This document shows, one piece after another, positions 21,804 through 39,471 of a stretch of 64,000 bases of DNA; within the stretch, counting starts at the first letter, position 1, and the number at the start of each line of letters is the position of its first letter. Where the stretch lies: contig JAVWHL010000001.1 of assembly GCA_036640095.1 (NCBI GenBank), positions 4,504 through 68,503 of the forward strand. The letters run 5' to 3'. A program made the position numbers and the translations under genes. Under the pieces are notes generated by a model, which worked only from the letters and a program-made list of their open reading frames with translations, searched no databases and was not told the origin of the DNA. The stretch comes from Erysipelotrichales bacterium. Its GTDB lineage: Bacteria > Bacillota_I > Bacilli_A > JAJDGJ01.

Positions 21804-21821
21804 ATTATAAAACCTCCTAAA

Positions 21822-23128: not shown

Positions 23129-23132
23129 TCAC

Positions 23133-24365: not shown

Positions 24366-24376
24366 AATAACTCCCC

Positions 24377-25045
24377 TTATTTAATCTTAACAAGCTCAAA
24401 ATCCATTCCAAATATTACACTAAAATCATAATCTAATATTTGTTTTTTATCTTTAAAATGTAAAGTTCTAATAACTGGATAAGCACGAAGTTCATATTTT
24501 CCAGCTTTTTTAACATTTAAATCTTTATGTTGTAAAGCAGTAGCATCTTTAATTTTGTCTAATTCTTTAATTATAATATTATCAACAACATCATTTGTTT
24601 TTTTCTTTTTGAATTCATTAAAGTTTTTACCAGATATTTCTTTTAAGATATCTATCTTTTCATTATCTTTTAAATCATATGTATTTAATACACTATAACT
24701 TTCTTTGTCAATAAAATCAGCATATTCTAAGGCATATGCACTATTATTATTTCCATATCCTTCTAATAGTTTAAAACCTTTATAGTTTTTTTCATAAGAT
24801 ATTGATGCTGGATCTTTTATCCCTAATTCGTTTGCGATTGTATTATTATTTTCACTTGTTATCATTTCAATATTTTCTTTTGTTTGAATATTACCTATAT
24901 CTTTTATTGAAGTGAATATAACATTACCATTTTTTGTTTTTTCTATATCTACTTTATTATTAGTTCCAAATGGCATAGTCATACATGCATTTAATACTAA
25001 GACTAATAATAATATTAAACTTATTCTTTTTTTCATCTTATTCAC
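24377..25045 (-). CDS. Hypothetical lipoprotein
   Basis: Signal peptide with a lipobox-like LVLNAC. No recognised domain. Confidence 0.6.
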   Translation of the reverse strand: MNKMKKRISLILLLVLVLNACMTMPFGTNNKVDIEKTKNGNVIFTSIKDIGNIQTKENIEMITSENNNTIANELGIKDPASISYEKNYKGFKLLEGYGNNNSAYALEYADFIDKESYSVLNTYDLKDNEKIDILKEISGKNFNEFKKKKTNDVVDNIIIKELDKIKDATALQHKDLNVKKAGKYELRAYPVIRTLHFKDKKQILDYDFSVIFGMDFELVKIK

Positions 25046-25694
25046 CCACTCTTACATATCTAAAAGATAAATCATCAAAAACATAATATGTTTTTATTTT
25101 TCTATCTTGTTCAACATCATTTTTAACTAAGTTTAAATCTAATACTAATTGATAGTTGCCTTTAGGTATTGTTTTATCTAATAAGACAATATCTTGATTC
25201 TCTTGTACTAATTGTTCTTGTTCACCTTTAAGTAATTTAGTATTCTTATCTTTTAGATAGAACTTAAGGCTTTCAATTAGTTTTTTATCTAATGGACTTT
25301 TTTCTTTTTTATCTTCTAAAATTTCTAAAACTGTTTTATAAGATAATTGATAAGAACTATTATTTCTTTTTCCATCATGTTTAATATTATAATCACTTAA
25401 TACTAAGTAGTTATTTATATTAACTGATTCCATTTTTACACAATTACTTTTTTCAAATTGATTTGTATCTTTTTTTGTTTTAACAAGTTTTTTTACATCA
25501 ATTTCTTTATCATAAATTAATGATTTGTCTGGTTCACTCACTTTAGAGCGTGATGTACAATCCATCTTATATGCTGGCTTGTAAAGTCCCATAGACCCAT
25601 CTGGTTGTGTAAAGTAGGTATATGCATAATAACTTCCACCTAAAACTAATAATATAATTATATATTTAGAATATTTTTTTATTTTTTCTTTCAA
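25038..25694 (-). CDS. Hypothetical membrane-anchored/secreted protein
   Basis: N-terminal TM (YIIILLVLGGSYYAY). Its C-terminus loosely resembles that of 24377..25045 (KGNYQL / AGKYEL). It overlaps the next gene by 8 nt. Confidence 0.55.
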   Translation of the reverse strand: MKEKIKKYSKYIIILLVLGGSYYAYTYFTQPDGSMGLYKPAYKMDCTSRSKVSEPDKSLIYDKEIDVKKLVKTKKDTNQFEKSNCVKMESVNINNYLVLSDYNIKHDGKRNNSSYQLSYKTVLEILEDKKEKSPLDKKLIESLKFYLKDKNTKLLKGEQEQLVQENQDIVLLDKTIPKGNYQLVLDLNLVKNDVEQDRKIKTYYVFDDLSFRYVRVGE

Positions 25695-25810
25695 AATTAA
25701 TCATTCCTTCTATTTGTCATTTCTAAAATTATATCATAACTAAAGTTTATTTAATATATCTAACTAGTGAATAACGCTAAATAAAAAGAGAAAAAACTAA
25801 AGAATATTCT

Positions 25811-26443
25811 TTAGTTTAAAACATAATATATTTGTTTGTAAATAGGTACATTAGTATTAGTCCATATACTTTCAAATTCTTTTATTGGATATTTATTATT
25901 ATATTTACCACTTGTTTGATTCATTAATGAATCAGCAAGGAATATATTTTTATCACTATAGCCTATTACATTTACATAATGTAGTCCAACTTTAGGATCA
26001 TTTATTAAGACAATGACTGGTTTATTTTTTGCAACATGCATTTTTAATTGTTCAATACTACCTTTATACATTGTTATATTATAATTATTATCTTTAAAAT
26101 ATTTTACGATTGCTTGAGGCATTACATATCCACTTGTAAATTTATAATTTAAATCATTATATACTTCATCACCTTTTATTTTATGACCATTCATTCTTAA
26201 AAGGTAAGCAGAAGAATATCCTGCGCATTGATTTAAGCCTTGTTTATCAAATGTTGTATTATTCTTAACTAGAAATTTTTGTGGGTATTTATCATTTATT
26301 TTATCTTTTTTAGGTAATCTTTGTGCATATAAATCAAATATAGTTAATCCATAGTTCTTATAACTTAAGTACGCTTGTCCTGCAATATTTAGAACCACAA
26401 ATATTATTAACAATGAAAAAATGACTTTTTTTAGCTTTTTCAT
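25811..26443 (-). CDS. Secreted papain-fold cysteine peptidase, C39-like (Peptidase_C39_2-type)
   Basis: Signal/TM segment, then NQCAGYSSAY (Gln-Cys nucleophile context) and LHYVNVIGYSD (His) followed by ADS. Confidence 0.55.
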   Translation of the reverse strand: MKKLKKVIFSLLIIFVVLNIAGQAYLSYKNYGLTIFDLYAQRLPKKDKINDKYPQKFLVKNNTTFDKQGLNQCAGYSSAYLLRMNGHKIKGDEVYNDLNYKFTSGYVMPQAIVKYFKDNNYNITMYKGSIEQLKMHVAKNKPVIVLINDPKVGLHYVNVIGYSDKNIFLADSLMNQTSGKYNNKYPIKEFESIWTNTNVPIYKQIYYVLN

Positions 26444-26444
26444 A

Positions 26445-27086
26445 TTATATACCTAGTACTGTATACATAATAGCTTGTACATACATATTTATTTCATCTT
26501 GGCATATTTTCGATATTTGTTTGTATTGCATTACCATATCTCTAGCTAGTGTATATGTCTGATAGTTTAGTGTTGGGGAATACTTAATATCGTATTCTAA
26601 TAGCTGTGCTACTTTTTTCATTGTTGTTGGCTTAATAAAAACCTCGGCTTTAGGATTAAAGAAAGATAAAAAGAAAGTAATAATTGGCCATTTAGCAACG
26701 TTTGTTTTTGAATCAGCTTTCTTTAATGAAAGAACTCTAACAAAATTATTAAATGAATCTTCATTAAGTTCATTTAACATTTCATAAAGAGAAGTTAGAA
26801 AATCTTCTTGAAGCTTTTTATCTGCAATATAATTTTTAAATGCTACTTTTTCAAAGACTGATACCATCGAGCAAGACGTTAGTAATTTTGTTATAAATTG
26901 GATATTATCAGCGACCGTTGGTGGATATTGTTCCATCAATCTTTCGATATCAAATGCCTCAACTTTTTTTAAGATTCGATTATTAACTTTATGTCTTTTA
27001 GATGCTTCTATAAAAGATATATCTTGTAATCCATCTGGATATAATTTTAAGAACATTTCATCTATTAAATATATATTATTATTCAT
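26445..27086 (-). CDS. Hypothetical protein
   Basis: 213-aa ORF, 15 nt downstream of thrC-thrB on the same strand. No family recognised. Confidence 0.55.
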   Translation of the reverse strand: MNNNIYLIDEMFLKLYPDGLQDISFIEASKRHKVNNRILKKVEAFDIERLMEQYPPTVADNIQFITKLLTSCSMVSVFEKVAFKNYIADKKLQEDFLTSLYEMLNELNEDSFNNFVRVLSLKKADSKTNVAKWPIITFFLSFFNPKAEVFIKPTTMKKVAQLLEYDIKYSPTLNYQTYTLARDMVMQYKQISKICQDEINMYVQAIMYTVLGI

Positions 27087-27101
27087 AAGTTCACCTCATT
27101 A

Positions 27102-29423
27102 TTAATAATATTCTACCATAACTCCACTATAATCAACACTCAATTTTCTAAAGTCTAGTCCCTCAAATGATTTTATATACTCATTTATTTGAGTTTCTTT
27201 ATTTGCTTCTGCAAGAAACATCATTGTTGTCCCTGCACCACTTACCCAATGTGTTACAAATTTATTACTTGCAATAATATTTCTTATTTGATTAATATTA
27301 CAAATTAAATTCATTCGATACTCTTGGTGTATTTGATCTTGTGAGACAATTGGTAAATAGTTAATTATACCCTTTTCAAAGGCATTTAAACATATACTAG
27401 CACGAGCTATATTATGGATAGCTTGAGCGTATGTTAATTCAGTTGGTAAAGCTGCACGAGCTTTTGATGTTGATAGTTCTTCTAGACCAATTAAAGCATA
27501 GAAAGATAGGCTTGGTGCAACTTCAATACGGTGATAGTAAATATCATTATCATCTAATACAGCTGAAACCATTCCGCCAAGTGCTGCAGGTGCAGTATTG
27601 TCTGGATGCCCTTCTACTAAGCATGCTTCATATGCAATTTGTTGGGGGCTTAAATTAAGTTGTCCATATATATTAGCTGCAACAATTCCTGCTAGAATAC
27701 ATGTTGAACTTGAACCTAGACCTCTTGCAATAGGGATATTAGTTTCTATTTTAAGATTAAATGGTCCATCTACTTCTTTATTATACTTTTTCATAACTCT
27801 TAGATATGATTGGTAAACCATATTATCTTTATTATCATATTTTTCATTACCTGAATCGATAGAAAACCCATCTTCAAAACTAAAAGTAAAGTAATTATAT
27901 AAATCTAGTGCAATTCCAGTTACATCAAATCCTGATCCGATATTTGCAGTTGTTGCTGGCACCCTAACTCTAAATGATCTATGAACTTCACCATCTAATT
28001 TAGATAGTAAGTAAGGTGCTACATCATTTACATTTAATACTGTTTTAAATCTAATTGGTAATTCTTTTAATTCTTTTAATTTATTAGGTATATCTTCATT
28101 CATTACTTTAGAGATATCTTTAAAATTACTACTTTCTAAATTTAAGGCATGCATAATTGTATCACTAAACTTAAATGGTGATGCAGTAGCAACGACTAAT
28201 GAATAATTTGAAGTTTTATTTAACCCTTTATATGCTAAAGCAGTATGTGGGTCTATTACATAGTTATTATTATCATATTCTTCTTTAATAATCTTATAAA
28301 CATCCTCATCATTTCCATATTCACATACAAATTCTTTTTGTAATTCTTCTAATTGTTGTTTATTTAATTTAAACACTTTTTCATTTGTTAGATTATTCAT
28401 CATTTCTTGATTAAATTGAGGACCAAATTTCATAGCGATTAATCTTTCTAGATTCGAAGAAATTAAGATATCCATTGATGGTGCAACACTCTTATTTAGT
28501 TCTCTATTATTAATATTATAAACACCTGTATTTAGAAAGTCGTGTAGAACATTATTTGCATTGCTACAACAAACTAATTTATCAACTTTAACTCCCATTA
28601 ATTTTGCAATATAAGCAGCTAAAATATTTCCGAAATTTCCTGTAGGTACAGCGATATCTATCAGCTCATTTTCTTTGATTTTCTTGTTATTTATTAGTTG
28701 TAAATATGCATAGATATAGTAAATTACTTGGGGTAATAATCGGGCAATATTTATTGAATTTGCACTCATTAAATGATAACCTAATTTTTCAAATGTAGCT
28801 AAATTTTCTTTATCATTTAAAAGTTTTTTTACATAAGTTTGGGCATCATCAAAGTTACCATTAATCGCAATGACTTCTACATTATTTCCTTGTTGTTTTA
28901 CCATCTGCTCATACTGTATTTGGCTTACTCCATTATTTGGATATAAGACTGCTATTTTTATTCCTTCTAAGTCTTTTAAGGCCTCTAATGCTGCTTTTCC
29001 AGTATCTCCAGATGTAGCACTAATAATATATACATCTTCTTCAATACCTTCCTTTTTAGCGGCTAATTCCACTAAATAAGGATATAAAGCTAATGCCATA
29101 TCTTTAAAAGCAGCACTTTGTCCATGAAATAATTCTAAATAACCATAATTATCAAACAACTTTAAATCTAAAATCTTTTTTTCAAAGTTTTCATTACTAT
29201 ATGCTTTGTAAACAGCATCTTTTAAATTATCTTCACCTAATTCTTTAAAGTATATTTTCAATACCTCAAAAGCTACTTCTTGATAAGAATAATCTTTCAT
29301 ACTTATTATATCAATTGGTTTTATTTCACTAGGAATATATAATCCTTTTAAACTATCAAAAGGATTTAATATAGCCTGTGAAGCTGATACTTCTTTATTA
29401 TCTCTACTACCTAAATAAACCAT
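27102..29423 (-). CDS. Fused threonine synthase (E. coli-type, N-terminal ~480 aa) / homoserine kinase (C-terminal ~290 aa)
   Basis: - N-terminal part has ThrC motifs (HGQSAAFKDMAL PLP-lysine context, SATSGDTGKAA).
- C-terminal part starts at FRVRVPATTANIGSGFD (GHMP kinase/ThrB motif) and has GLGSSS.
- It is one uninterrupted frame.
- I moved the start to the ATG at 29423 after AAGGAG. Confidence 0.85.
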   Translation of the reverse strand: MVYLGSRDNKEVSASQAILNPFDSLKGLYIPSEIKPIDIISMKDYSYQEVAFEVLKIYFKELGEDNLKDAVYKAYSNENFEKKILDLKLFDNYGYLELFHGQSAAFKDMALALYPYLVELAAKKEGIEEDVYIISATSGDTGKAALEALKDLEGIKIAVLYPNNGVSQIQYEQMVKQQGNNVEVIAINGNFDDAQTYVKKLLNDKENLATFEKLGYHLMSANSINIARLLPQVIYYIYAYLQLINNKKIKENELIDIAVPTGNFGNILAAYIAKLMGVKVDKLVCCSNANNVLHDFLNTGVYNINNRELNKSVAPSMDILISSNLERLIAMKFGPQFNQEMMNNLTNEKVFKLNKQQLEELQKEFVCEYGNDEDVYKIIKEEYDNNNYVIDPHTALAYKGLNKTSNYSLVVATASPFKFSDTIMHALNLESSNFKDISKVMNEDIPNKLKELKELPIRFKTVLNVNDVAPYLLSKLDGEVHRSFRVRVPATTANIGSGFDVTGIALDLYNYFTFSFEDGFSIDSGNEKYDNKDNMVYQSYLRVMKKYNKEVDGPFNLKIETNIPIARGLGSSSTCILAGIVAANIYGQLNLSPQQIAYEACLVEGHPDNTAPAALGGMVSAVLDDNDIYYHRIEVAPSLSFYALIGLEELSTSKARAALPTELTYAQAIHNIARASICLNAFEKGIINYLPIVSQDQIHQEYRMNLICNINQIRNIIASNKFVTHWVSGAGTTMMFLAEANKETQINEYIKSFEGLDFRKLSVDYSGVMVEYY

Positions 29424-29435
29424 ACCTCTCACTCC

Positions 29436-30419
29436 TTAAATTATATTATCAATTAAATGCAATGCTATTTGAACACTATTTCCTGCTGCACCTTTTCTAA
29501 GATTATCTGCTACACAATAGAAATGAAGAATTTTATCATTAAATAAATCTTTTCTAATACGACCTACATAAACTAAATCATTACCTTTAGCTTCACTTGC
29601 TATTGGATAGATATTATCTTGTGTATCATCTCTTAAAGCTATACTCAAATCATTTTTAAAAGCCAACTTTAATTTATTAACATCTAAATCATTTTCAACT
29701 TCAACACTTATACTTACACCATGTCCTACTTCTATTGGCACTCTAATACATGTTGCTGCCACTTCTAAATCAGTGAGACTTAAAATTTTCTTAGTCTCAT
29801 TAATCATTTTATGCTCCTCTTTACTAAAACCATCACTCACATAATCATCAATTAATGGAATTAAATTCTCTTTTATTGGATATGGATATAAATTTATAGT
29901 TTCATTTACTAAATCATTTACACCCTCAATCCCAGATCCAGAAACAGCTTGATAAGTTGAATATGTAACTCTTTTTAATTTAAATAAATCATCAACAACT
30001 CCTAATGGAACACATGATTGAATCGTTGTACAATTAGGATTTGCTATAAGATAAGTATCTCTATTCAACTTACTTAAATTTACTTCAGGAACAATTAAAG
30101 GCACACCATCAACCATTCTAAAGACACTTGAATTATCAATTACATATGTCTTATTAGAGATAAACAACTCATTATATTCCCTTGAAATATCTCCACCAGC
30201 ACACATAAAGACAATATCTAAGTCCTTATCTATACTATCTTTACTTAATTCAATTATTTTATATTCATCACCATTAAATTCAACATCCTTACCAGCAGAT
30301 CTTTTTGATCCATATAAAACTAAATTTCCTATAACAACTTTATATTCACTTAGTGCCTTTAATATATTCTTTCCTACCAATCCATTAGCACCAACAACTC
30401 CTATATTTACTACTATCAT
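29436..30419 (-). CDS. asd: Aspartate-semialdehyde dehydrogenase
   Basis: GVVGANGLVG NAD motif, active-site NPNCTT, and the C-terminal DNLRKGAAGN motif. I trimmed the start to the ATG at 30419 after GGGGTGA. Confidence 0.9.
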   Translation of the reverse strand: MIVVNIGVVGANGLVGKNILKALSEYKVVIGNLVLYGSKRSAGKDVEFNGDEYKIIELSKDSIDKDLDIVFMCAGGDISREYNELFISNKTYVIDNSSVFRMVDGVPLIVPEVNLSKLNRDTYLIANPNCTTIQSCVPLGVVDDLFKLKRVTYSTYQAVSGSGIEGVNDLVNETINLYPYPIKENLIPLIDDYVSDGFSKEEHKMINETKKILSLTDLEVAATCIRVPIEVGHGVSISVEVENDLDVNKLKLAFKNDLSIALRDDTQDNIYPIASEAKGNDLVYVGRIRKDLFNDKILHFYCVADNLRKGAAGNSVQIALHLIDNII

Positions 30420-30429
30420 TTTATCACCC

Positions 30430-30888
30430 CTAAATATTAAATGATTCACTTAAAATACTGACTGTTTCTTTTGATTTATCTCTATCTATCAACATCGATA
30501 AAGATAAATTACTAATTATTGATTGATCAATATAAATCTCTTTATTATTTAATTCACGATATATATCGATACTTAATTGTGGTGAGGATACAAAACCTAG
30601 ACCAACTAAAGTTATACAATCAAAATCATTTCTAATAACATATTCAAATAAATAATCTTTTTTTAATAATTCCAATTCTTTTTTTATTTGTGCTACATCA
30701 ATATCATTTACCACAAAACTTATCTTATCTTGTTTACATTGCATAAACATTCCAAATTTTATATTATGAAAACCTAATATATCTAAAAGTGCATCAAATA
30801 GATTGTGATAATTTTTTATATTTGATACCTCTATTTTATTAACCTTATCATCAATACTTAACCCAGTTATATCTTTTTTTTCCATCAT
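30430..30888 (-). CDS. Aspartokinase regulatory (ACT-domain) polypeptide, separately encoded
   Basis: 152 aa. ITGLSIDDKVNKIEVSNI... resembles the V.G...D.N.AKITV start of the aspartokinase ACT region. It has its own AAGGAG RBS, 9 nt before the ATG. Confidence 0.7.
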   Translation of the reverse strand: MMEKKDITGLSIDDKVNKIEVSNIKNYHNLFDALLDILGFHNIKFGMFMQCKQDKISFVVNDIDVAQIKKELELLKKDYLFEYVIRNDFDCITLVGLGFVSSPQLSIDIYRELNNKEIYIDQSIISNLSLSMLIDRDKSKETVSILSESFNI

Positions 30889-30893
30889 CTAAA

Positions 30894-31613
30894 TCAACTC
30901 CTTATCCAAGTTCCACTAATATTACTAGTTAATTGTCCTACATAGATAGGAACGCTATAGCGAAGTGCTAATTCAACTGAACGTGGTTCTAAAACACCAC
31001 TACCACTTAAAGCAAGTTCAAGCATTTCTTCATAACAAATGCTATCTAATTTATGAGCACCCTCTACTTTACGGGGATCAGCACTAAATACACCTTCAAC
31101 ATCTGTATATATTTCACAACTACAATCTAATTTAGCCGCCAAAGCTACTGCAGTTGTATCAGATCCACCTCTTCCTAAAGTCATAAAATCATTTTCTTTA
31201 TTAACACCTTGAAATCCAGCAACTACAATAAAATCATATTTATCTAGATATTGCTTTACAACATCTATTTCAATATCCTTTATAACTGCTTTTTGATGAA
31301 CCCCTTCAACCTGAATTTGTGCTTGAAAACCAGTTAGAGCCAAAGCCTTCTTATTTAGCTTTTGTAAGGCCATACTCATTAAAGTAGCACTTACTTGTTC
31401 ACCAGTAGCAAGCAGCATATCAAATTCACGTGCACAGCCTTCATCATTTACTTGACAACCAAGTTCCAATAATTTATCAGTAGTATTCCCCATTGCAGAT
31501 ACAACTAAAACAATTTTCTCTTTAGCCTCTACTAACTTTCTTGCTATATCCTCTATTTTCTCAATTGTGGCTAAACTACTTCCTCCCACTTTAATAACTC
31601 TAACATTCTCCAT
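30894..31613 (-). CDS. Aspartokinase catalytic (amino-acid kinase) domain only
   Basis: V.K.GGSS, VVSAMG..TD.L and GRGGSDTTA motifs. It ends at ..GTWIRS-TGA, 5 nt and one frame away from the ACT ORF. Confidence 0.85.
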   Translation of the reverse strand: MENVRVIKVGGSSLATIEKIEDIARKLVEAKEKIVLVVSAMGNTTDKLLELGCQVNDEGCAREFDMLLATGEQVSATLMSMALQKLNKKALALTGFQAQIQVEGVHQKAVIKDIEIDVVKQYLDKYDFIVVAGFQGVNKENDFMTLGRGGSDTTAVALAAKLDCSCEIYTDVEGVFSADPRKVEGAHKLDSICYEEMLELALSGSGVLEPRSVELALRYSVPIYVGQLTSNISGTWIRS

Positions 31614-31627
31614 TTCCTACACCTCCA

Positions 31628-31671
31628 TAAAATAAAAAACCCTATATGTGTAATCTCACATACAGGGTTTG
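31628..31671 (-). terminator. Leader (attenuator) terminator in front of the aspartokinase gene
   Basis: Minus strand reads AAACCCTGTATGTG-AGATTA-CACATATAGGGTTT followed by TTTTTATTTT. It ends about 15 nt before the aspartokinase RBS. Confidence 0.8.
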
Positions 31672-31733
31672 TAAATGAAGACTACAAGCAATTAACTTAA
31701 AATAGACTCCATTTAATATATTAGTAATATATC

Positions 31734-31805
31734 TTAAATGAGTCTTTTGTTAGTTGATGTAGTTGTGCCTAAATTAAAATTGATGATACTGATTATCTTT
31801 TCCAT
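31734..31805 (-). CDS. Candidate 23-codon Thr/Ile-rich leader peptide (MEKIISIINFNLGTTTSTNKRLI)
   Basis: My translation. The ATG lies 8 nt after GAAGGAGG. The ORF sits between a promoter and the leader terminator, upstream of threonine-pathway genes. Confidence 0.55.
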   Translation of the reverse strand: MEKIISIINFNLGTTTSTNKRLI

Positions 31806-31848
31806 AATTTAAGCCTCCTTCATATCTTTCTTTTTTTAAATTGTCCTA

Positions 31849-31877
31849 ATTATAACTAAATAAAATATTAAATGCAA
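31849..31877 (-). promoter_or_regulatory. Sigma-A promoter of the thr-pathway leader (TTGCAT-17 nt-TATAAT)
   Basis: Hexamers on the minus strand at 31872..31877 and 31849..31854. Confidence 0.65.
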
Positions 31878-31884
31878 GTTTTTT

Positions 31885-33447
31885 TTAATATTTATGCTCT
31901 AATTCACCAACTGCTTTAATTTTTATACGAACTGCATCCTCAGGATGATATGCAATTGGAAACTCTTCTACTTCAATTATTTCTACACTATTAGGAGCAG
32001 CTCCAGCTTTAATTGCATTTGTAATTGCTATCTCCTTAGAATTTGCGATTGCCTCTTCACGTGGTGTTTTTGCAAAACTAATTATTCCCTCAAAGTTACC
32101 ACTTACTTTTGCAATACTAGCACCAATAGCATTAGCTACTTCAAAGTTGTCTGGAACTAAGACATTTGTTATATTAGAATATTCTTTTGGAACAATTGAT
32201 GATCCACCACCAACCACAATTAGATTTTCATTAACTCTAGAAGTACTTACTAAATCAATTGAATCTTCAATCATACTCTTTACTTTTCCCATTACTTTTT
32301 GAGCGAACAATTCATCTAGATCTTTTAACTTTGTTTCATCTCCAAACTTAGCCATTCCTAGTTTAATCGCAATATCACTAAGAGTAATTGTTTTTCCACC
32401 AAAAATCAATGCTTCTTGACTAAGTGAATATCCAACACTATCTGGTCCAATTGTAATATTACCAAGTTCATCTTCACGTACAATTGTTCCACCCCCAATA
32501 GAGATACTTACAATATCAGGCATCCTAAAGTTTGTTGTAACACCACCAACACTCGATTCTATTGAAGTCTCACGAGGAAATCCATTAACAACCACTCCAA
32601 TATCACTTGTTGTAACACCTACATCTAGAATAATTCCAGTATCTTCTTTTGATAAATAGATACCCCCTCTAATAGAGTTGGTTGGTCCTGATGCAATCGT
32701 TAAAACTGGGAATTTCAAGGCATACTCTACATCCATTAGCGTACCATCATTTTGACATAAATATATACTTGCTCCATTTATTTTTTCTTTTTTCAAAGCC
32801 TCTTTAAAACCACTCACTACATTTTTAATAACATTTACTAATGCAGCATTCAAAATCGTTGCATTTTCTCTTTCTAATAAACTTAAACTACCTATTTCAG
32901 AAGAAATCGAAACATTTGCATTTGGATCAATATTTTTAATTATATTTCTTACTTCCTCTTCTTGTGAACCACTAATAGGAGCAAATACACATGAAATTGC
33001 ATAATTATGACAATTACCAATATTCACTTTTACAATATTTTCAATTTCTTCTTTATCAATATTTTTTATAGGAGTCCCATCATACTCAAATCCACCCTCA
33101 GCAATATAATATTCTTGATTAATAAGTTCTTTTATATCACTGGGCCAATTTGCATATGGATGAACTGCTCTTGTTGCTGGTCCTGCAAGTCTAATGCTAA
33201 CTACTTTTTCTAGTTTCTTTCTTTCGACAATTGCATTTGTACATTGTGTAGTACCTAGCATTGCATGAGTAATATTTTTAACATCAATAACACTTTGCTT
33301 AATAACTTCTTTTAATGCATCATTAATTCCACTAAAAATATCTTTCGTAGTAAATGTTTTATATTTACTTACTACCATATTATTTTCATCAATTATAATA
33401 GCATCTGTATTTGTTCCCCCAACATCTATTCCTACACGATACTTCAT
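31885..33447 (-). CDS. Hydantoinase/oxoprolinase-family protein (HyuA-like, ATP-dependent ASKHA fold)
   Basis: The MKYRVGIDVGGTNTD N-terminus and a second GGG..V.. phosphate motif are typical of the Hydant_A_N / Hydantoinase_A families. Confidence 0.75.
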   Translation of the reverse strand: MKYRVGIDVGGTNTDAIIIDENNMVVSKYKTFTTKDIFSGINDALKEVIKQSVIDVKNITHAMLGTTQCTNAIVERKKLEKVVSIRLAGPATRAVHPYANWPSDIKELINQEYYIAEGGFEYDGTPIKNIDKEEIENIVKVNIGNCHNYAISCVFAPISGSQEEEVRNIIKNIDPNANVSISSEIGSLSLLERENATILNAALVNVIKNVVSGFKEALKKEKINGASIYLCQNDGTLMDVEYALKFPVLTIASGPTNSIRGGIYLSKEDTGIILDVGVTTSDIGVVVNGFPRETSIESSVGGVTTNFRMPDIVSISIGGGTIVREDELGNITIGPDSVGYSLSQEALIFGGKTITLSDIAIKLGMAKFGDETKLKDLDELFAQKVMGKVKSMIEDSIDLVSTSRVNENLIVVGGGSSIVPKEYSNITNVLVPDNFEVANAIGASIAKVSGNFEGIISFAKTPREEAIANSKEIAITNAIKAGAAPNSVEIIEVEEFPIAYHPEDAVRIKIKAVGELEHKY

Positions 33448-34526
33448 TACTTATTCCCCCTTTGTAATACTTCAATTGGTACATATTGATAATCATAACC
33501 AAAGACACGTGGTCCTACTAATTCAATACCCTTTTCTAAGCGCCATTTTTCATCACATGGAAAAGCAATACAAGTTATTCTTTGTCCAAACTTTAATGTC
33601 TCAGTCGTAATAGGCATTTTTGTTTGGTAATCTAAAATACAAATTAAGTCTGGCACCATTGCTATTAAATTATTGTTTTTAAATGCTACTAAATTCTCAT
33701 TCTGCAGAAATATTTGATATTCATTATTATTATCAAACGAATCCATAACTACTTTCCCCTTATTAAAACCACCTTCATAAGTTCGATAGACATCACTAAT
33801 TTTACCATCAAACAAATGAAACGCTCCAAGACTATTAACCATATCCTCTACAGGTGTTTCACTCTCATTAATAATCTTTCCTATTTCATATGATTTAGTA
33901 ACAATACCTTTAACACCAAAAATATTTAATGTTTCTTTATTATAGTAGCTTTCAGACATCATTGCTGAGCCACCAAAATCCATTGTTAAAGAACGACAAT
34001 ACTTTTCCATATCTTTAGGATTATTAACTTTCATTACCATATAATCTAATTTTTCATTCCCTAGTACAATTGTAGAATTATCAATATCAAAAATAGATTG
34101 AGTAATCATTTGTAGTTCAGGAAAAGCTCTCCCCATACAATCAACATCTAATAATGGAAGTCTCATATTAGCTGCAGCTACAATAGGTATCATTGAGTTT
34201 AATCCACCAGCTTCAATAGGATAAAGTGCTGATAATTCAACATCCATAACTTTAGACATTCCTGCTATAACAGTCGGAAACTCATCACCATTAGGAATCT
34301 TTTCAAGACTAACACTAGGTGCACCCATCATAGAAACACATCCAGCCATCTCATCATCTTTTAGATCATCAACTTGTAATAATGGAATTGGTCCATTCTT
34401 TTCAATAGCTTGTAAAGCCATTAAATAACCTATTTTAGGATCGCCACCTCCACCAGTTCCAAGTACAGTAGCTCCTACTACTGCATGTTTTAAAAATTCT
34501 TTATCAATCATTATATTTTTAGACAT
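33447..34526 (-). CDS. DUF917-family protein
   Basis: 359 aa. GA..LGTGGGGDP near the N-terminus and overall length and pattern match my memory of DUF917. Its stop overlaps the downstream gene's start codon. Confidence 0.6.
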   Translation of the reverse strand: MSKNIMIDKEFLKHAVVGATVLGTGGGGDPKIGYLMALQAIEKNGPIPLLQVDDLKDDEMAGCVSMMGAPSVSLEKIPNGDEFPTVIAGMSKVMDVELSALYPIEAGGLNSMIPIVAAANMRLPLLDVDCMGRAFPELQMITQSIFDIDNSTIVLGNEKLDYMVMKVNNPKDMEKYCRSLTMDFGGSAMMSESYYNKETLNIFGVKGIVTKSYEIGKIINESETPVEDMVNSLGAFHLFDGKISDVYRTYEGGFNKGKVVMDSFDNNNEYQIFLQNENLVAFKNNNLIAMVPDLICILDYQTKMPITTETLKFGQRITCIAFPCDEKWRLEKGIELVGPRVFGYDYQYVPIEVLQRGNK

Positions 34527-34537
34527 ATAAACTCCCC

Positions 34538-35851
34538 CTATCTTTTAATTTTCATTATAAATATATACAGTATAAATGGCACAATAATGCTTAATATTGG
34601 TAGAGCATTTGCAAGAGTAGGAATGTTTGCAATAAAATCTGGTTTAAATGTTGAAATAATTCCTAATACTGCACCAACTAGATATGATGCAATTGCTTTT
34701 CCTTGATTTGGTTCTTTTTCCATATACCCTTCTACTTTACCTTTATGTAAAACCCAATAGTCAGCTATCATAACACCTGCAATTGGGATAATTAAATTAG
34801 TTAATAATGTTAAGAATAATTGGAAATGAGTAGATATACCTATTACCGCTAAAACAGTACCTATCACTCCTGTAACAGCAGTCATTTTGGCTCTATCACT
34901 ATCTTTTAAGTTTAATCCATTAACAACTGCAATTCCTGCAGAATATGCATTTGCTACATTAGTTTTCCATGTTGCTACTAACAATACCAAAGAAGATATA
35001 ATTGGAAATGGAATATTCTGATTAATTACAGTTACAATATCAGGATTATTTACTCCATTATTAATAGATACAATTGTTAGGAATACTCCTATAAAAAGCA
35101 ATAACATTCCAACCGGTACTATTCCTATGAAAGCAGCTTTAATTGTATCTTTACGATTTTTGTTAAACCTTGTATAATCTCCAGCAATTACTGCTCCTAA
35201 AACAAAACTACCAATAACAATAACAACTCCATCTATAAAACTCATTGTTTCACTAGGCTGATAACTTACAACCGCATTCAAATCAGCTCCTTGTAAAGCA
35301 TTAAAGAAAGCCCATAAAAAAACTATAATCAATAATGGCACTGTATACTTACTAATATTTTCAAGTACTTTGAATCCATAAAGAGCACTTATTAACACTA
35401 CAACCCCCATAATAATTGATGCTAATTTTAATGGTATACTTACATTGAATATTTCAAATAGTTGTTGGAGCGCTGAAGCAGCAACACCAGTTTGCACACC
35501 AAACCAGCCTATTAATGCAATCGCAATTACAAATGAGAATAGTATATTTGCTAGACCACTTCCAAATGATTTACGTGCTAAAACAACAGCTGGTCTTCCT
35601 AAATCAGAAGACTGGCTACCTTGTAAAGCTGTGATTAAAATAATAACTAAATACCCAACTAATCCTGATAAGATTGCAAGCCCAAAACCAAGCCCACTAA
35701 CCAAAGATTGACCTAAAAGGATTGATGGTAAACAAACCATTGTACCCATCCAAATAAACATTACTGAAATCCATGATTGTCGATCTTCTTGTGGTACTTC
35801 ACTCGTAACAAACTTATCAAAGTCAATTGCCGATTTCTTTTTATCAGACAT
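34538..35851 (-). CDS. NCS1-family permease (cytosine/purine/hydantoin/allantoin type)
   Basis: 437 aa, about 12 TMs. The N-terminus (...EVPQEDRQSWISVMFIWMG) is typical of CodB-like transporters. Confidence 0.75.
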   Translation of the reverse strand: MSDKKKSAIDFDKFVTSEVPQEDRQSWISVMFIWMGTMVCLPSILLGQSLVSGLGFGLAILSGLVGYLVIILITALQGSQSSDLGRPAVVLARKSFGSGLANILFSFVIAIALIGWFGVQTGVAASALQQLFEIFNVSIPLKLASIIMGVVVLISALYGFKVLENISKYTVPLLIIVFLWAFFNALQGADLNAVVSYQPSETMSFIDGVVIVIGSFVLGAVIAGDYTRFNKNRKDTIKAAFIGIVPVGMLLLFIGVFLTIVSINNGVNNPDIVTVINQNIPFPIISSLVLLVATWKTNVANAYSAGIAVVNGLNLKDSDRAKMTAVTGVIGTVLAVIGISTHFQLFLTLLTNLIIPIAGVMIADYWVLHKGKVEGYMEKEPNQGKAIASYLVGAVLGIISTFKPDFIANIPTLANALPILSIIVPFILYIFIMKIKR

Positions 35852-35880
35852 CTTAATTCCCCCTTTTCTTTCCCCAATAA

Positions 35881-35915
35881 ATACAAAAAGCCAAATGGAA
35901 TTCCATCTGGCTTTT
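35881..35915 (-). terminator. Terminator-like hairpin inside the 5' leader of the permease operon (possible attenuator)
   Basis: Minus strand reads AAGCCAGATGGAA-TTCCATTTGGCTT followed by TTTTGTATTT. It lies about 30 nt upstream of the permease ATG and downstream of the promoter at 36073..36102. Confidence 0.6.
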
Positions 35916-35942
35916 AAATAATATACTTATGTATAATTAAAA

Positions 35943-36038
35943 TTAATTAGAATGGAACAATCTAGGCAATAAAGTAAAAAAATATTTATTTACAATAAAT
36001 CGTATATTTATGTATTTTATAATAGAAACATTACCCAT
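35943..36038 (-). CDS. Possible 31-codon leader ORF (MGNVSIIKYINIRFIVNKYFFTLLPRLFHSN)
   Basis: My translation. The ATG follows AAGGAGAG by 8 nt. The ORF lies between the promoter and the leader hairpin. No conservation evidence is available. Confidence 0.3.
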   Translation of the reverse strand: MGNVSIIKYINIRFIVNKYFFTLLPRLFHSN

Positions 36039-36072
36039 TCTTTACACTCTCCTTATGTATTTATTGCGTTAA

Positions 36073-36102
36073 AGTATATCATTTTAATTTTTAGAAAGTC
36101 AA
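36073..36102 (-). promoter_or_regulatory. Candidate sigma-A promoter for the permease/DUF917/hydantoinase operon (TTGACT-18 nt-TATACT)
   Basis: Hexamers on the minus strand at 36097..36102 and 36073..36078. Confidence 0.5.
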
Positions 36103-36121
36103 TATTTATTTCATAAATATG

Positions 36122-36143
36122 AAAAAAGACTACTATGAGTCTT
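36122..36143 (-). terminator. Intrinsic terminator after the amidohydrolase gene
   Basis: Minus strand reads AAGACT-CATAGT-AGTCTT followed by T6. Confidence 0.65.
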
Positions 36144-37758
36144 ATTTCGAGTATATTAATTTTCCATCTAACATTGTTTTTAGTACTTCAGTATCATTAA
36201 TATTTTCAAAATCAATATTAAAGATATCTTGATTTAATACAATTAGATCTGCTTGCTTACCAACTTCTAAACTTCCCTTGATGTTCTCTTCAAATGATTG
36301 ATATGCCCCTTCATATGTATAAGCGTAAACGGCCTGTTGCACACTTAAACATTCTTTTTCGTTCCAGCTATGAATCATATTACCACTTAAATCTTTACGA
36401 GCTACTGCACAATAAATATTGTGAAAAGGTGATGTAGATTCTACTGGACTATCAGTACCTAGCGATAAAGAAACTCCTTCTTCAATCAATGTTTTAAATG
36501 CATAAGAAGTTCTTGCTTTCTCTACTCCAACTCTATCTTCTACCATATGAATATCATAATGCAAGAATATTGGTTGAGCATACACTACTGCATTAATATC
36601 TCTTATTCTTTTGAGTGCTACTGCTTCTGTAATCTGACAATGAACAATACCATGTCTTAAATCTTCTTTTGGATTTTCTTTTTCTAGTTTTTCATATAAA
36701 TCTAATATTTGATTTATAGCACCATCACCTATTCCATGAATGGCCATTTGTATATTATTATTTTGGGCAATATTTCCTAAGCTAAATAACTCTTCATCAT
36801 TATATATGCTAATGCCATTTATATCTTCATCATGATAATTTCCTTCTAATACGGCTGTTCTAGCTCCCAGAGAACCATCTAATAATAGCTTTAATGGACC
36901 TATTCTATAATTATTAAAACCTTCACTAATATGATATGACTTATTAATAAAATCCTGTAATAAATCAACTTTAGGAAGTAAACATTGTTGGTATACTTTT
37001 AAATTTAATTTACCTTCTGTATCTAATTCTTGATATGCTTTCATAATAGTTTCATATTGAACTCCTGGTAATGCAGTAAAATCATCACTTTGAACTGAAG
37101 TAATTCCTTGTGCATTGACATGATCAGCAAATCTAACAATCAGATCTTTAATATCATCAACTTCCAAAATAGGTAAATTACTATAGACATACCCTAGTGC
37201 ACCTTCACTAAATAGACCATTTAAATCTCCATTATCATCTATATATATTTTACCATCATCTAATTGTGGTAAGTTATTTTTATCTAAATTTATTATTTCT
37301 AAGGCTTTACTATTTACAACACAAATATGAATACAAGCTCTTATAAGACATATTGGAGTTTCAGTAGATATTTTATCTAGGTCATCCTTTGTTGGAAATT
37401 CTTTAACATCAAAATAATCTTGATTCCAACCTCTTCCAATAACCCAATCTCCTTGCTTTAAATCATCTGGCCAGTTATTTTGCGTAATATTAATTAAATC
37501 GGTTGTTGATCTTGCATTACATAAATCTATTTGTTGCATTTTTTGAGCAGTTAGTAAAGCATGTAAATGACTATCATTTAAACCAGGAATTACTACATGT
37601 CCTTCTAAGTCTATTATTTCATCTTTATTACTAACATATTCCATTATATTATTTGTAGTACCAACCATACTAATTTTATCATTATCGATTAATATAGCTT
37701 CAACAATCTCATCACTATTCATTGTATGTATTTTTCCATTTATAAGAGCTATAGACAT
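36142..37758 (-). CDS. Metal-dependent amidohydrolase (Amidohydro_3 / YtcJ-like)
   Basis: PGLNDSHLH metal motif, later HGIGDGA and HCQ motifs, and a C-terminal GSLEVGKQADL motif. I trimmed the start to the ATG at 37758 (MSIALINGKIHT). Confidence 0.8.
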   Translation of the reverse strand: MSIALINGKIHTMNSDEIVEAILIDNDKISMVGTTNNIMEYVSNKDEIIDLEGHVVIPGLNDSHLHALLTAQKMQQIDLCNARSTTDLINITQNNWPDDLKQGDWVIGRGWNQDYFDVKEFPTKDDLDKISTETPICLIRACIHICVVNSKALEIINLDKNNLPQLDDGKIYIDDNGDLNGLFSEGALGYVYSNLPILEVDDIKDLIVRFADHVNAQGITSVQSDDFTALPGVQYETIMKAYQELDTEGKLNLKVYQQCLLPKVDLLQDFINKSYHISEGFNNYRIGPLKLLLDGSLGARTAVLEGNYHDEDINGISIYNDEELFSLGNIAQNNNIQMAIHGIGDGAINQILDLYEKLEKENPKEDLRHGIVHCQITEAVALKRIRDINAVVYAQPIFLHYDIHMVEDRVGVEKARTSYAFKTLIEEGVSLSLGTDSPVESTSPFHNIYCAVARKDLSGNMIHSWNEKECLSVQQAVYAYTYEGAYQSFEENIKGSLEVGKQADLIVLNQDIFNIDFENINDTEVLKTMLDGKLIYSK

Positions 37759-37936
37759 TATAAATTCCTCATTTCTTTTATATCTCATTAACAATTCCAT
37801 AATAACAAACCTCATTGCTTTTATCAATCTAATATCTAAACTATGTTATAATTGTATTATGACTAATTAATGTTTATATTTGTTTTTAATATAGACTTAG
37901 CGTAGTATTTAATATTAATATGAAAGGGTTGATAAT

Positions 37937-39439: not shown

Positions 39440-39445
39440 ATTTAA

Positions 39446-39471
39446 AGGAGTGGTAAGACACTTCTTTTTTT
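39446..39471 (+). terminator. Intrinsic terminator after guaB
   Basis: AGGAGTG-GTAAGA-CACTTCT followed by T6. Confidence 0.65.

What the first reader, a model, noticed from the sequence alone, without database searches (positions are those of the whole stretch)
31628..31877. Thr/Ile-rich leader peptide plus terminator upstream of the threonine-pathway operon (ribosome-mediated attenuation candidate)
**Elements on the mRNA strand, in order**
- A near-consensus promoter (TTGCAT-17-TATAAT).
- GAAGGAGG, then 8 nt later a 23-codon ORF MEKIISIINFNLGTTTSTNKRLI (31734..31805).
  - Four of its first eight codons are Ile.
  - Codons 14-18 read Thr-Thr-Thr-Ser-Thr.
- A long imperfect hairpin (AGACTCATTTAAGATATATTA / TAATATATTAAATGGAGTCT) whose 5' arm covers the last codons and the stop of the ORF.
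- A possible alternative pairing of AAUGGAGUCUAU with GUAGUCUUCAUU.
- A strong intrinsic terminator (14-bp stem plus U-run, 31628..31671), about 15 nt before the aspartokinase RBS.

**Why it matters**
- The genes behind it are aspartokinase, asd and thrC-thrB, which are threonine-pathway genes (aspartokinase and asd are shared with other aspartate-family pathways).
- This is the logic of E. coli thrL, whose leader is also rich in Thr and Ile.
- Bacillota usually control such operons with T-boxes, riboswitches (the L-box for lysC) or protein regulators.
- A translated attenuator here would therefore be unusual.
- I could not identify a convincing antiterminator that directly competes with the terminator stem by eye.
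Basis: partly seen in the sequence, partly recalled or inferred. Interest (0 to 1): 0.75.

Follow-up and report, generated by a model that had tools for sequence, protein, structure and literature searches.

The report
Threonine-sensing leader peptide attenuator
A short, translated "leader" in front of a threonine-pathway operon of an uncultured gut-type Bacillota bacterium most likely senses threonine, isoleucine and methionine supply through ribosome stalling, the same trick E. coli uses but built from unrelated sequence.

Summary
On the minus strand, 31877..31614 carries in order:
- a promoter (TTGCAT-17-TATAAT);
- a Shine-Dalgarno (SD) ribosome-binding site;
- a 23-codon ORF (31805..31734) with a Thr-Thr-Thr-Ser-Thr run;
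- two alternative hairpins;
- a 14-bp terminator just before a split aspartokinase-asd-thrC/thrB operon.

No Rfam family matches. The window comes from an Erysipelotrichales MAG.

Five relatives (aspartokinase 62-76% identical) were found through the protein, not the leader. All five keep an ATG-started 18-24-codon ORF, with an SD wherever the upstream DNA is present (four of five). The peptide is otherwise unconserved, but it always ends in a frame-specific Thr/Ile/Met run next to the same hairpin.

All six leaders share a relay of mutually exclusive helices:
- codon run:3a (P0, covaries);
- B:C (P1);
- C:D3;
- the terminator itself.

A ribosome at the stop codon covers B, which allows C:D3 and then the terminator. 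A ribosome stalled on the early Thr codons leaves P1 intact and D3 free to block the terminator.

The antiterminator is the weakest link (-2 to -11 kcal/mol). Nothing has been tested experimentally. This is a new member of a known kind.

The parts
31849..31877 (-). Promoter: -35 TTGCAT (31877..31872), 17-nt spacer, -10 TATAAT (31854..31849)
   Evidence: Read directly from the sequence. The -35 matches the consensus at 3 of 6 positions, so the scan did not list it. TTGNNT-17-TATAAT is found at the same position in L006, L007 and L008.
31814..31821 (-). Shine-Dalgarno (SD) site of the leader ORF (GAAGGAGG), 8 nt before the ATG
   Evidence: A GGAGG or AGGAG lies 7-9 nt before the ATG in the four relatives whose upstream DNA is present.
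31734..31805 (-). Leader ORF, 23 codons plus stop: MEKIISIINFNLGTTTSTNKRLI
   Evidence: An equivalent ORF is present in all five relatives. It is not annotated in the GenBank record (gene list).
31752..31766 (-). Regulatory codon run ACA ACU ACA UCA ACU (Thr-Thr-Thr-Ser-Thr, codons 14-18). It is also most of the 5' arm of helix P0 (region A, about 31763..31749).
   Evidence: The Thr enrichment is frame-specific, with P about 8e-4 for 4 Thr in 6 codons. P0 pairing is shown. Cognate arms beat 717 of 720 permutations.
31736..31745 (-). Block B (AGACUCAUUU), core of the 5' arm of hairpin P1. It overlaps the last codons and the stop codon. The full 5' arm runs to about 31725.
   Evidence: 96.7% of cells paired across six sequences, with 2 compensatory pairs. 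A ribosome at the stop codon covers 10 of 10 of these bases.
31702..31714 (-). Block C (AAAUGGAGUCUAU). It is the 3' arm of P1 and alternatively the 5' arm of the C:D3 helix (anti-antiterminator).
   Evidence: RNAalifold picks C:D3 plus the terminator as the consensus when region A is left out.
31686..31701 (-). Region 3a (UUUAAGUUAAUUGCUU, continuing into GUAGUC). It is the 3' arm of the long-range helix P0 that pairs with the codon run, and the loop of the C:D3 hairpin.
31669..31685 (-). Block D3 (GUAGUCUUCAUUUACAA). It pairs either with C, or with the distal terminator 5' arm plus loop (the proposed antiterminator).
31651..31684 (-). Proposed antiterminator hairpin: D3 (UAGUCUUCAUUUACA) with UGUAUGUG plus the terminator loop AGAUUA. 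ACCC forms its loop.
   Evidence: It folds at -8.4 kcal/mol and is the minimum-free-energy (MFE) structure of the transcript before the 3' arm is made. Across six sequences 88.1% of cells pair in register, with 2 compensatory pairs in L005. UGUAUGU never varies, while its terminator partner varies by wobble.
31627..31670 (-). Intrinsic terminator: stem 31670..31637 (14 bp), loop 31656..31651, T-rich run to 31627
   Evidence: -19.2 kcal/mol; 98.9% of cells paired with 3 compensatory pairs.
27102..31626 (-). Regulated operon:
- aspartokinase ribosome-binding site (31626..31622);
- AA_kinase subunit (31613..30894);
- ACT subunit (30888..30430);
- asd (30449..29436);
- thrC-thrB fusion (29432..27102).
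   Evidence: Pfam. The same gene order is seen in relatives.

Best explanation
This is a classical ribosome-mediated (leader-peptide) transcription attenuator of the aspartokinase-asd-thrC/thrB operon. It senses charged tRNA-Thr, and in the family as a whole also tRNA-Ile and tRNA-Met.

**Steps of the proposed mechanism**
1. Transcription starts about 40 nt before the leader ATG.
2. The nascent RNA first folds into a long hairpin. It has two parts: P0 (codon run paired with region 3a) enclosing P1 (B:C). By analogy with the trp 1:2 hairpin, this may pause the polymerase until a ribosome arrives. This step is inferred.
3. If Thr, Ile and Met are plentiful, the ribosome runs to the stop codon.
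   - The stop lies inside block B or 5-6 nt before it.
   - The ribosome's footprint therefore covers 7-10 of the 10 core bases of B.
   - Block C is freed and pairs with block D3 (the anti-antiterminator).
   - The terminator 5' arm stays free, the 14-bp terminator forms, and transcription stops about 10 nt before the aspartokinase ribosome-binding site.
4. If the ribosome stalls on the early codons of the Thr/Ile/Met run, B stays free and P1 persists.
   - D3 is then unpaired and folds onto the distal terminator 5' arm plus the terminator loop (UCUUCAUUUACAA with UUGUAUGUG-AAGA).
   - This occupies the nucleation site of the terminator hairpin while the polymerase crosses the U-run, so the operon is read through.

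**Shown here**
- The elements exist and are conserved.
- The codon bias is frame-specific.
- All five helices are compatible with, or covary in, six sequences.
- The footprint geometry fits.

**Inferred**
- The pausing.
- The kinetic competition.
- The actual response to tRNA charging.
For: **ORF**
- It is conserved in 6 of 6 sequences, although the relatives were found through the protein.
- The N-terminal halves are unrelated and the lengths are 18-24 codons. An SD and ATG are present wherever the DNA is available.
- Thr/Ile/Met runs are frame-specific. In-frame there are 2-4 Thr in the last 12 codons; other frames have 0-1 and carry stop codons in five of six sequences.
- Per-sequence P for the Thr or Thr/Ile/Met clustering is down to about 1e-3.

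**Shared fold**
- The same P0 + P1 + terminator fold is the MFE in all six sequences.
- The P0 arms differ in sequence but stay complementary. Only 3 of 720 arm permutations do as well as the cognate pairing. Shuffled arms do as well in at most 2% of trials for five of six sequences.

**Pair counts on the six-sequence alignment A5**

| Helix | Cells paired | Compensatory pairs |
|---|---|---|
| P1 | 96.7% | 2 |
| C:D3 | 97.4% | 0 |
| Antiterminator | 88.1% | 2 |
| Terminator | 98.9% | 3 |

Slid controls gave 25-71% in all four cases.

**Asymmetric conservation**
- B, C, D3 and the distal terminator 5' arm (UGUAUGU) are nearly invariant. Each has two alternative partners.
- The terminator 3' arm and the P0 arms have one partner each and vary freely.

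**Ribosome masks**
- With a ribosome at the stop codon, C:D3 forms in win, L004, L005 and L008. The distal terminator arm is fully free in win; in L004, L005 and L008 only a short residual hairpin remains on it.
- With a stall at early Thr codons, P1 plus the antiterminator is the MFE in win, L005, L006 and L008.

**Geometry and controls**
- Stalls on the first codons of the run leave B uncovered. The stop-codon ribosome covers 7-10 of 10 B bases.
- RNAalifold independently returns C:D3 plus the terminator.
- No Rfam family matches.
- The upstream neighbours differ between relatives, while the leader always travels with the aspartokinase gene.
Against: - **Weak antiterminator.** It folds at -8.4, -5.6, -5.3, -10.7, -1.9 and -6.1 kcal/mol, against -16 to -23 for the terminator. 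It is not better than shuffles in L004, L005 and L007.
- **Terminator always favoured at equilibrium.** At full length it wins by 12-23 kcal/mol in every ribosome state. The decision would have to be kinetic.
- **L007.** C:D3 (-15.0) beats P1 (-7.3), so masks make no difference there.
- **L006.** The antiterminator wins thermodynamically even with the ribosome at the stop codon.
- **Late codons of the run.** Stalls on them would cover part of B.
- **Few, related sequences.** Only six are available. Alignment A5 was made by hand to fit these helices, so the pair counts lean towards them.
- **No expression data.** There is no transcript-end, ribosome-profiling or reporter evidence.
Confidence: 0.7

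Rival explanations
1. This is a factor-dependent attenuator that does not sense through translation. The conserved blocks (AAAUGGAGUCUAUUU, GUCUUCAUUUACAA, UGUAUGU) would be the binding site of an RNA-binding protein or a small ligand, as in an unknown riboswitch. That factor would shift the P1 / C:D3 / antiterminator / terminator balance. The small ORF would be incidental or only auxiliary.
For: - Sequence conservation of several 10-15-nt blocks is unusually strict for a leader-peptide attenuator.
- The antiterminator is too weak to win unaided.
- Orthologous lysC genes of Clostridia are riboswitch-controlled.
Against: - Every conserved block is accounted for by having two alternative pairing partners.
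- No Rfam family matches.
- The rival does not explain a conserved SD + ATG + open frame that ends at a fixed place relative to hairpin P1. It also does not explain the frame-specific Thr/Ile/Met run kept through complete turnover of the rest of the peptide.
- There is no multi-helix junction or large conserved loop typical of an aptamer.
Confidence: 0.12
2. This is translation-licensed termination without amino-acid sensing. Any ribosome that translates the leader melts P0/P1 and triggers C:D3 plus the terminator. The untranslated leader defaults to read-through. Regulation would act on initiation of leader translation, for example through pairing of the pyrimidine block D3 with the leader SD, or on global translation capacity. 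It would not act on Thr-tRNA charging.
For: - Without a ribosome, the transcript up to the terminator loop folds as P0 + P1 + antiterminator in five of six sequences.
- In the window and in L005, the MFE of the untranslated leader pairs the leader SD region with D3.
Against: - It gives no reason for the Thr/Ile/Met run, or for its placement 12-21 nt before block B.
- SD:D3 pairing is seen in only two of the five leaders with the SD present.
Confidence: 0.1
3. The parts are unrelated. The hairpin plus T-run would simply be the terminator of the upstream permease / S-Me-THD / hydantoinase operon. The small ORF and hairpins would be chance features of an AT-rich spacer.
For: - The hydantoinase gene ends at 31885, only 8 nt before the -35 element.
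- No other terminator follows it.
Against: - The terminator lies 215 nt after that stop codon and 10 nt before the aspartokinase ribosome-binding site. That leaves no room for a promoter.
- The whole leader, terminator included, is conserved in front of aspartokinase in five relatives whose upstream genes differ: DUF6506/WxL in L008 and an unrelated ORF in L005.
- Fold z = -4.2.
Confidence: 0.03

Closest known systems
E. coli / enterobacterial thr operon leader (thrL, Rfam Thr_leader RF00506)
   Same: - The regulatory logic and the pathway are the same. A short leader peptide rich in Thr and Ile precedes an intrinsic terminator in front of aspartokinase and thrB/thrC genes.
- The regulatory codons lie in the first helix.
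- In Pasteurellales the thrA leader was predicted to carry Met codons as well (Vitreschak et al. 2004, recalled from my own knowledge). This family shows the same feature.
   Different: - There is no detectable sequence or structure homology. No Rfam match appears even at E <= 10.
- The phylum is different (Erysipelotrichales, Bacillota).
- The operon is different: split aspartokinase, asd and a thrC-thrB fusion, with no hom.
- The run is shorter: 2-4 Thr, against 8 Thr and 4 Ile in thrL (the thrL numbers are from my own knowledge).
Salmonella / E. coli his operon attenuator (six-segment relay A:B, B:C, C:D, D:E, E:F)
   Same: - The topology of the relay is the same. A stalled ribosome allows B:C and D:E (antiterminator). 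A ribosome that runs on allows C:D and E:F (terminator).
- Here the segments B, C, D3, T5 and T3 play those roles.
- The description of the his leader is from my own knowledge.
   Different: - The amino acids sensed are different and there is no sequence similarity.
- Here the codon run pairs with a distant segment (3a) that encloses B:C, rather than with B.
- The untranslated state may therefore default differently.
Leu-rich leader peptide attenuator of the Staphylococcus aureus ilv-leu operon, and predicted ones in Lactococcus and Streptococcus
   Same: It is a translated attenuator in Bacillota with a terminator before the first biosynthetic gene. Genetic support exists in S. aureus (PMC5794164).
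   Different: It belongs to the branched-chain amino-acid pathway with Leu (and Ile) codons. It is an unrelated sequence.
Lysine riboswitch (L-box, RF00168) in front of lysC
   Same: It controls the orthologous enzyme. The closest full-length aspartokinases (54-56% identity, Clostridia) sit behind a lysine riboswitch scoring 98-99 bits.
   Different: It is a metabolite-binding aptamer with no ORF and it responds to lysine. It is absent here. In this lineage the aspartokinase is split and embedded in a threonine operon.

Membership tests
Classical ribosome-mediated (leader-peptide) transcription attenuator | Short ORF with its own SD and start codon between the promoter and the first structural gene | tested here: met
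   GAAGGAGG-8 nt-ATG, 23 codons. The same arrangement is present in all relatives with enough upstream DNA.
Classical ribosome-mediated (leader-peptide) transcription attenuator | Cluster of codons for the end product(s) of the regulated pathway inside the ORF | tested here: met
   There are 4 Thr in 5 consecutive codons. Thr/Ile/Met runs occur in all six sequences, are frame-specific, and have P down to about 1e-3 per sequence.
Classical ribosome-mediated (leader-peptide) transcription attenuator | Intrinsic terminator between the ORF and the first structural gene | tested here: met
   14-bp stem plus T-run at 31670..31627. It is conserved, with 3 compensatory pairs.
Classical ribosome-mediated (leader-peptide) transcription attenuator | Antiterminator that overlaps the terminator 5' arm and is mutually exclusive with it | tested here: inconclusive
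   The candidate is D3 with the terminator 5' arm plus loop.
- For: 88% of cells pair, 2 compensatory pairs, and the 5' arm is invariant. It is the MFE before the 3' arm exists in five of six sequences.
- Against: it is weak (-1.9 to -10.7 kcal/mol) and not better than shuffles in three of six sequences.
Classical ribosome-mediated (leader-peptide) transcription attenuator | Ribosome position (stalled on the run versus at the stop codon) selects between the alternative folds | tested here: inconclusive
   The footprint geometry fits. Masked folds behave as predicted in four of six sequences. At equilibrium the terminator always wins, so the selection would be kinetic and was not simulated.
Classical ribosome-mediated (leader-peptide) transcription attenuator | Read-through depends on translation of the leader and on charging of the cognate tRNA | not testable with these tools
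   This needs Term-seq, reporters or in vitro transcription-translation.
Rfam Thr_leader (RF00506) | Match to the covariance model at or above the gathering score | tested here: not met
   No hit at the gathering score in the window. No Thr_leader hit even at E <= 10 in 31400..32100.
T-box leader (RF00230) | Match to the covariance model (specifier loop, T-box sequence) | tested here: not met
   Searches gave no hit in the window or in the five relatives.
Lysine riboswitch (RF00168) | Match to the aptamer covariance model | tested here: not met
   No hit here or in the five relatives. There are clear hits upstream of the nearest full-length lysC genes, L013 and L014.

The most novel reading that the evidence does not exclude
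In this reading, a lineage of Erysipelotrichales-like bacteria did three things. It split its aspartokinase into a catalytic and an ACT subunit. It moved the gene into a threonine operon. It replaced the ancestral lysine riboswitch by a multi-input leader peptide that reads Thr, Ile and Met (and perhaps Lys) codons.

The attenuator would also work with inverted default logic. Termination would need a ribosome to reach the stop codon and melt P1. The untranslated leader would read through, the opposite of the superattenuation seen in trp and thr of E. coli.
Probability: 0.25. Interest if true: 0.6.

Novelty: new member of a known kind. Interest (0 to 1): 0.5.

Why it matters
- **Reach of the mechanism.** Leader-peptide attenuation of amino-acid operons is textbook for Proteobacteria. 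In Bacillota it is considered marginal, because T-boxes, riboswitches and proteins dominate there.
- **What is new.** This is a conserved Thr/Ile/Met leader in front of an aspartokinase-threonine operon that no Rfam model and no genome annotation captures. It adds a further case of the mechanism for a further pathway in that phylum.
- **Regulatory replacement.** A regulatory device can be swapped when a gene changes operon context. The nearest orthologues carry a lysine riboswitch.
- **A test object.** The leader offers a compact five-segment relay that could be tested in vitro.
- **Annotation.** The roughly 270-nt 'empty' spacer should be annotated as a leader ORF plus attenuator. Expression of this operon in metatranscriptomes should be read accordingly.
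- **Limits.** The family is rare (six sequences found) and the principle is not new, so the general impact is moderate.

Tried and rejected
1. **Known RNA families.** I ran Rfam over the whole window at gathering scores and over the leader at E <= 10. The only hits were sub-threshold matches that align only the terminator (trpB motif, 23 bits against a gathering score of 59) or are eukaryotic families.
2. **More homologues.**
   - An exact-pattern scan (AATGRAGYCTAYYT-N12-40-TACAA-N2-7-YTGTATGT) of the JGI metagenomes returned only the contig already known as L005.
   - The same scan of 185,579 GTDB species genomes returned one hit inside a Cytophagaceae coding region. I judged it to be chance.
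   - A protein search with the ACT subunit gave one more relative, but its contig starts at the aspartokinase start codon.
3. **Other antiterminators.** I scanned every 18-nt window upstream of the terminator for pairing with its 5' arm. No region pairs consistently across the six sequences. The codon-run region pairs well only in L004 and L005, and a stalled ribosome would cover it anyway.
4. **Automatic alignments.** MAFFT (A2, A3, A4) misaligned L006 and L007 around the variable spacers. I replaced them with a hand alignment padded with N (A5). That alignment is fitted to the helices it was used to test.
5. **Literature.** Searches for a threonine leader peptide in Gram-positive bacteria or Bacillota found none. 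They found only the branched-chain amino-acid examples and the Actinobacteria survey.
6. **hom.** I looked for homoserine dehydrogenase among ten further large ORFs of the window and did not find it.
Full report
**1. What is there**

The window is a contig of an uncultured Erysipelotrichales bacterium (GCA_036637615.1). On the minus strand, the 271 nt between the hydantoinase stop codon (31885) and the aspartokinase start codon (31613) carry these elements:

| Element | Coordinates | Note |
|---|---|---|
| -35 TTGCAT | 31877..31872 | 3 of 6 matches to TTGACA, so not listed by the scan |
| -10 TATAAT | 31854..31849 | perfect; 17-nt spacer |
| SD GAAGGAGG | 31821..31814 | 8 nt before the ATG |
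| Leader ORF MEKIISIINFNLGTTTSTNKRLI | 31805..31734 | 23 codons |
| Hairpin P1 | 31745..31703 | AGACUCAUUU.../...AAAUGGAGUCU |
| Block D3 GUAGUCUUCAUUUACAA | 31685..31669 | |
| Terminator | 31670..31637 plus T-run | 14 bp |
| Aspartokinase GGAGG | 31626..31622 | |

The leader folds far better than shuffles, with z = -4.2.

The genes behind it are:
- an AA_kinase-only protein of 239 aa;
- a separate ACT protein of 152 aa;
- asd;
- a ThrC-ThrB fusion of 776 aa.

No Rfam family reaches its gathering score anywhere in the 64 kb. Nothing credible appears at E <= 10 in the leader.

**2. Relatives**

A protein search with the 239-aa kinase found five proteins of 239-251 aa at 62-76% identity. The next hits are ordinary 401-aa aspartokinases of Clostridia at no more than 56% identity.

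The contigs of the five (L004-L008) all contain DNA upstream of the gene. Because they were found through the protein, they are an unbiased test of the leader.

All five carry an ATG-started small ORF. An SD is visible 7-9 nt before the ATG in the four whose upstream DNA is present. The L004 contig is cut just before that position.

| Sequence | Leader peptide |
|---|---|
| window | MEKIISIINFNLGTTTSTNKRLI |
| L004 | MLDLHIFDCTTIMMTKRLI |
| L005 | MLENKYDLINFDNMTSTTTMKRLI |
| L006 | MNENNLNNLYYNIGMTIKT |
| L007 | MNVYFKREFFISTTSIIL |
| L008 | MFNKFIENIVIGMTITIT |

- The N-terminal halves are unrelated. The only shared features are a Thr/Ile/Met-rich run and the place where the ORF ends. That place is inside block B of hairpin P1 (window, L004, L005) or 5-6 nt before it (L006-L008).
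- The in-frame last 12 codons hold 2-4 Thr and 5-8 Thr+Ile+Met. The other two frames hold 0-1 Thr, and in five of six sequences contain stop codons.
- Against the amino-acid composition of the window's proteins (Thr 5.0%, Ile 9.2%, Met 2.4%), the clustering has per-sequence probabilities between about 1e-3 and 0.14.
- The upstream genes differ between relatives, so the leader belongs to the aspartokinase operon.
- The promoter layout TTGNNT-17-TATAAT recurs in L006-L008.

**3. RNA architecture**

All six leaders have the same MFE fold. It has three parts: a long-range helix P0 between the codon run (region A) and region 3a, the hairpin P1 (B:C) enclosed by P0, and the terminator.

The P0 arms have quite different sequences in the six leaders, yet each pairs with its own partner:
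- Only 3 of 720 permutations of partners reach the cognate total energy.
- Shuffled arms do as well in at most 2% of trials in five of six sequences.

Block C has a second partner, block D3. It folds at -9.6 to -15.0 kcal/mol as a hairpin, with z from -3.2 to -4.9.

**4. The missing antiterminator**

D3 itself has a second partner: the distal half of the terminator 5' arm plus the terminator loop.
- In L006, UCUUCAUUUACAA pairs with UUGUAUGUGAAGA, giving 12 pairs and one U-U mismatch.
- In the window, UAGUCUUCAUUUACA pairs with UGUAUGUGAGAUUA.

This hairpin is the MFE of the transcript up to the end of the terminator loop in five of six sequences.

It also explains a striking asymmetry:
- UGUAUGU in the 5' arm and CAUUUACAA in D3 never vary.
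- The 3' arm opposite UGUAUGU reads ACAUAUA, ACAUGCA, GCAUGCA or ACAUACA. These are wobble-compatible one-sided changes.
- The base of the terminator covaries freely.
- The purine-rich terminator loop (AAGA-like) is complementary to UCUU of D3.

**5. Pair counts**

MAFFT misplaced L006 and L007. I therefore made a hand alignment padded with N, which the aligner kept gapless (A5). This alignment is fitted to the helices, so the counts lean towards them.

| Helix | Cells paired | Pairs with compensatory change |
|---|---|---|
| P1 | 96.7% | 2 |
| C:D3 | 97.4% | 0 (6 extra pair types by one-sided change) |
| Antiterminator | 88.1% | 2, both in L005 (C-G to U-A and U-A to C-G) |
| Terminator | 98.9% | 3 |

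Sliding the partners by 1-3 columns gives 25-71% paired. RNAalifold on A5, which lacks region A, independently returns C:D3 plus the terminator.

**6. Coupling to the ribosome**

I assumed a footprint from 15 nt before to 12 nt after the first base of the A-site codon.
- A ribosome at the stop codon covers 7-10 of the 10 core bases of B in all six leaders.
- A ribosome stalled on the first codons of the run leaves B free.

Masked folds of the transcript before the terminator 3' arm exists gave these results:
- With the ribosome at the stop codon, C:D3 forms in the window, L004, L005 and L008. The distal terminator arm is fully unpaired in the window. In L004, L005 and L008 a short residual hairpin remains on part of it.
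- With a stall at the early Thr codons, P1 plus the antiterminator forms in the window, L005, L006 and L008.

The relay is therefore B:C, C:D3, D3:T5, T5:T3. A stall gives B:C plus D3:T5, hence read-through. Running to the stop codon gives C:D3 plus T5:T3, hence termination.

This is the topology of the his attenuator (from my own knowledge). The direction makes physiological sense: low Thr, Ile or Met turns on aspartokinase, asd and thrC-thrB.

P0 may act as the pause and synchronisation hairpin, like trp 1:2. This is inference only.

**7. Weak points**

- The antiterminator is weak, at -1.9 to -10.7 kcal/mol. It is no better than shuffles in L004, L005 and L007.
- At full length the terminator is favoured by 12-23 kcal/mol in every state. 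The choice must therefore be kinetic, as in trp. My argument that occupying the loop-proximal nucleation site is enough is an inference.
- L007 has a weak P1 and a strong C:D3. L006 prefers the antiterminator even with the ribosome at the stop codon.
- Without any ribosome, the antiterminator also forms before the 3' arm is made. The untranslated default may therefore be read-through, unlike E. coli trp and thr.
- Only six related sequences exist. Pattern scans of JGI metagenomes and GTDB species genomes added none.

**8. Comparison with what is known**

- **E. coli thrL.** Functionally this is the logic of thrL, a Thr/Ile leader before aspartokinase-thrB-thrC. It is not a member of Rfam Thr_leader.
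- **Bacillota precedents.** Translated attenuators are documented for the S. aureus ilv-leu operon and predicted in Lactococcus and Streptococcus (PMC5794164). A 2005 survey lists threonine attenuators only for the groups studied earlier, citing work on proteobacteria (PMC1262725).
- **Literature searches.** My searches found no threonine or aspartokinase leader peptide in Bacillota.
- **Nearest full-length aspartokinases.** These Clostridia genes are monocistronic lysC genes behind a lysine riboswitch scoring 98-99 bits. This lineage therefore has both a different gene organisation and a different regulator.

**9. Verdict**

It is a new, unannotated and rare family of a well-known kind of regulator. 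The interest is moderate.

Noticed in passing
window 30430..31613 (-); also L005 342..1558, L008 1505..2680, L011 1..1187: The aspartokinase is split into two ORFs, a catalytic AA_kinase-only ORF (239 aa) and a separate ACT-only ORF (152 aa). They are 5 nt apart or overlapping. The split is conserved in all relatives with enough sequence, so it is not a frameshift artefact. All other close homologues are fused 401-aa proteins.
   Followed up: partly
window 27102..29432 (-): Threonine synthase and homoserine kinase are fused into one 776-aa protein: Thr_synth_N/PALP/THR4_C followed by GHMP_kinases_N. The operon contains no homoserine dehydrogenase. None was found among ten other large ORFs of the window.
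   Followed up: partly
window 31814..31821 and 31622..31626 versus 31669..31685 (-): The pyrimidine block D3 (GUCUUCAUUU) is complementary to block C. It is also complementary to the leader's own SD region (AUGAAGGAGG) and to the aspartokinase SD region (AUGGAGG). In the MFE of the untranslated leader, the SD region pairs with D3 in the window and in L005. This could be a layer of translational control or a coincidence of SD-like sequences.
   Followed up: partly
L013 3710..3877 and L014 3489..3679: The closest full-length aspartokinase genes (Clostridia) are monocistronic. Each is preceded by a lysine riboswitch scoring 98-99 bits. They also share divergent Na+/H+ antiporter genes upstream.
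   Followed up: yes
L005 342..1097: The called start of P0003 (251 aa) lies inside the terminator 3' arm (ATGCAGGGG). The real start is probably the ATG 33 nt downstream, behind GGGAGG. That would give about 240 aa, like the other relatives.
   Followed up: no
window 1..64000: No Rfam family at gathering score and no tRNA gene occurs in the whole 64 kb. This is despite a cysteinyl-tRNA synthetase gene at 5410..6792, a gene type often preceded by a T-box in Bacillota.
   Followed up: no
L010 1056..1105 (-): The only GTDB-genome match to the 27-base leader pattern lies inside a 341-aa ORF of a Cytophagaceae MAG. It has none of the other leader features, so I treated it as a chance match. The source MAG itself was not hit in the scan of GTDB species-representative genomes.
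   Followed up: yes
window 31885..35915 (-): The upstream operon encodes a cytosine/purine-type permease, an S-Me-THD-like protein and a hydantoinase/oxoprolinase. It ends 8 nt before the leader's -35 element with no terminator of its own. Read-through from it would also be subject to the attenuator. A 13-bp terminator-like hairpin at 35915..35886 precedes that operon.
   Followed up: no
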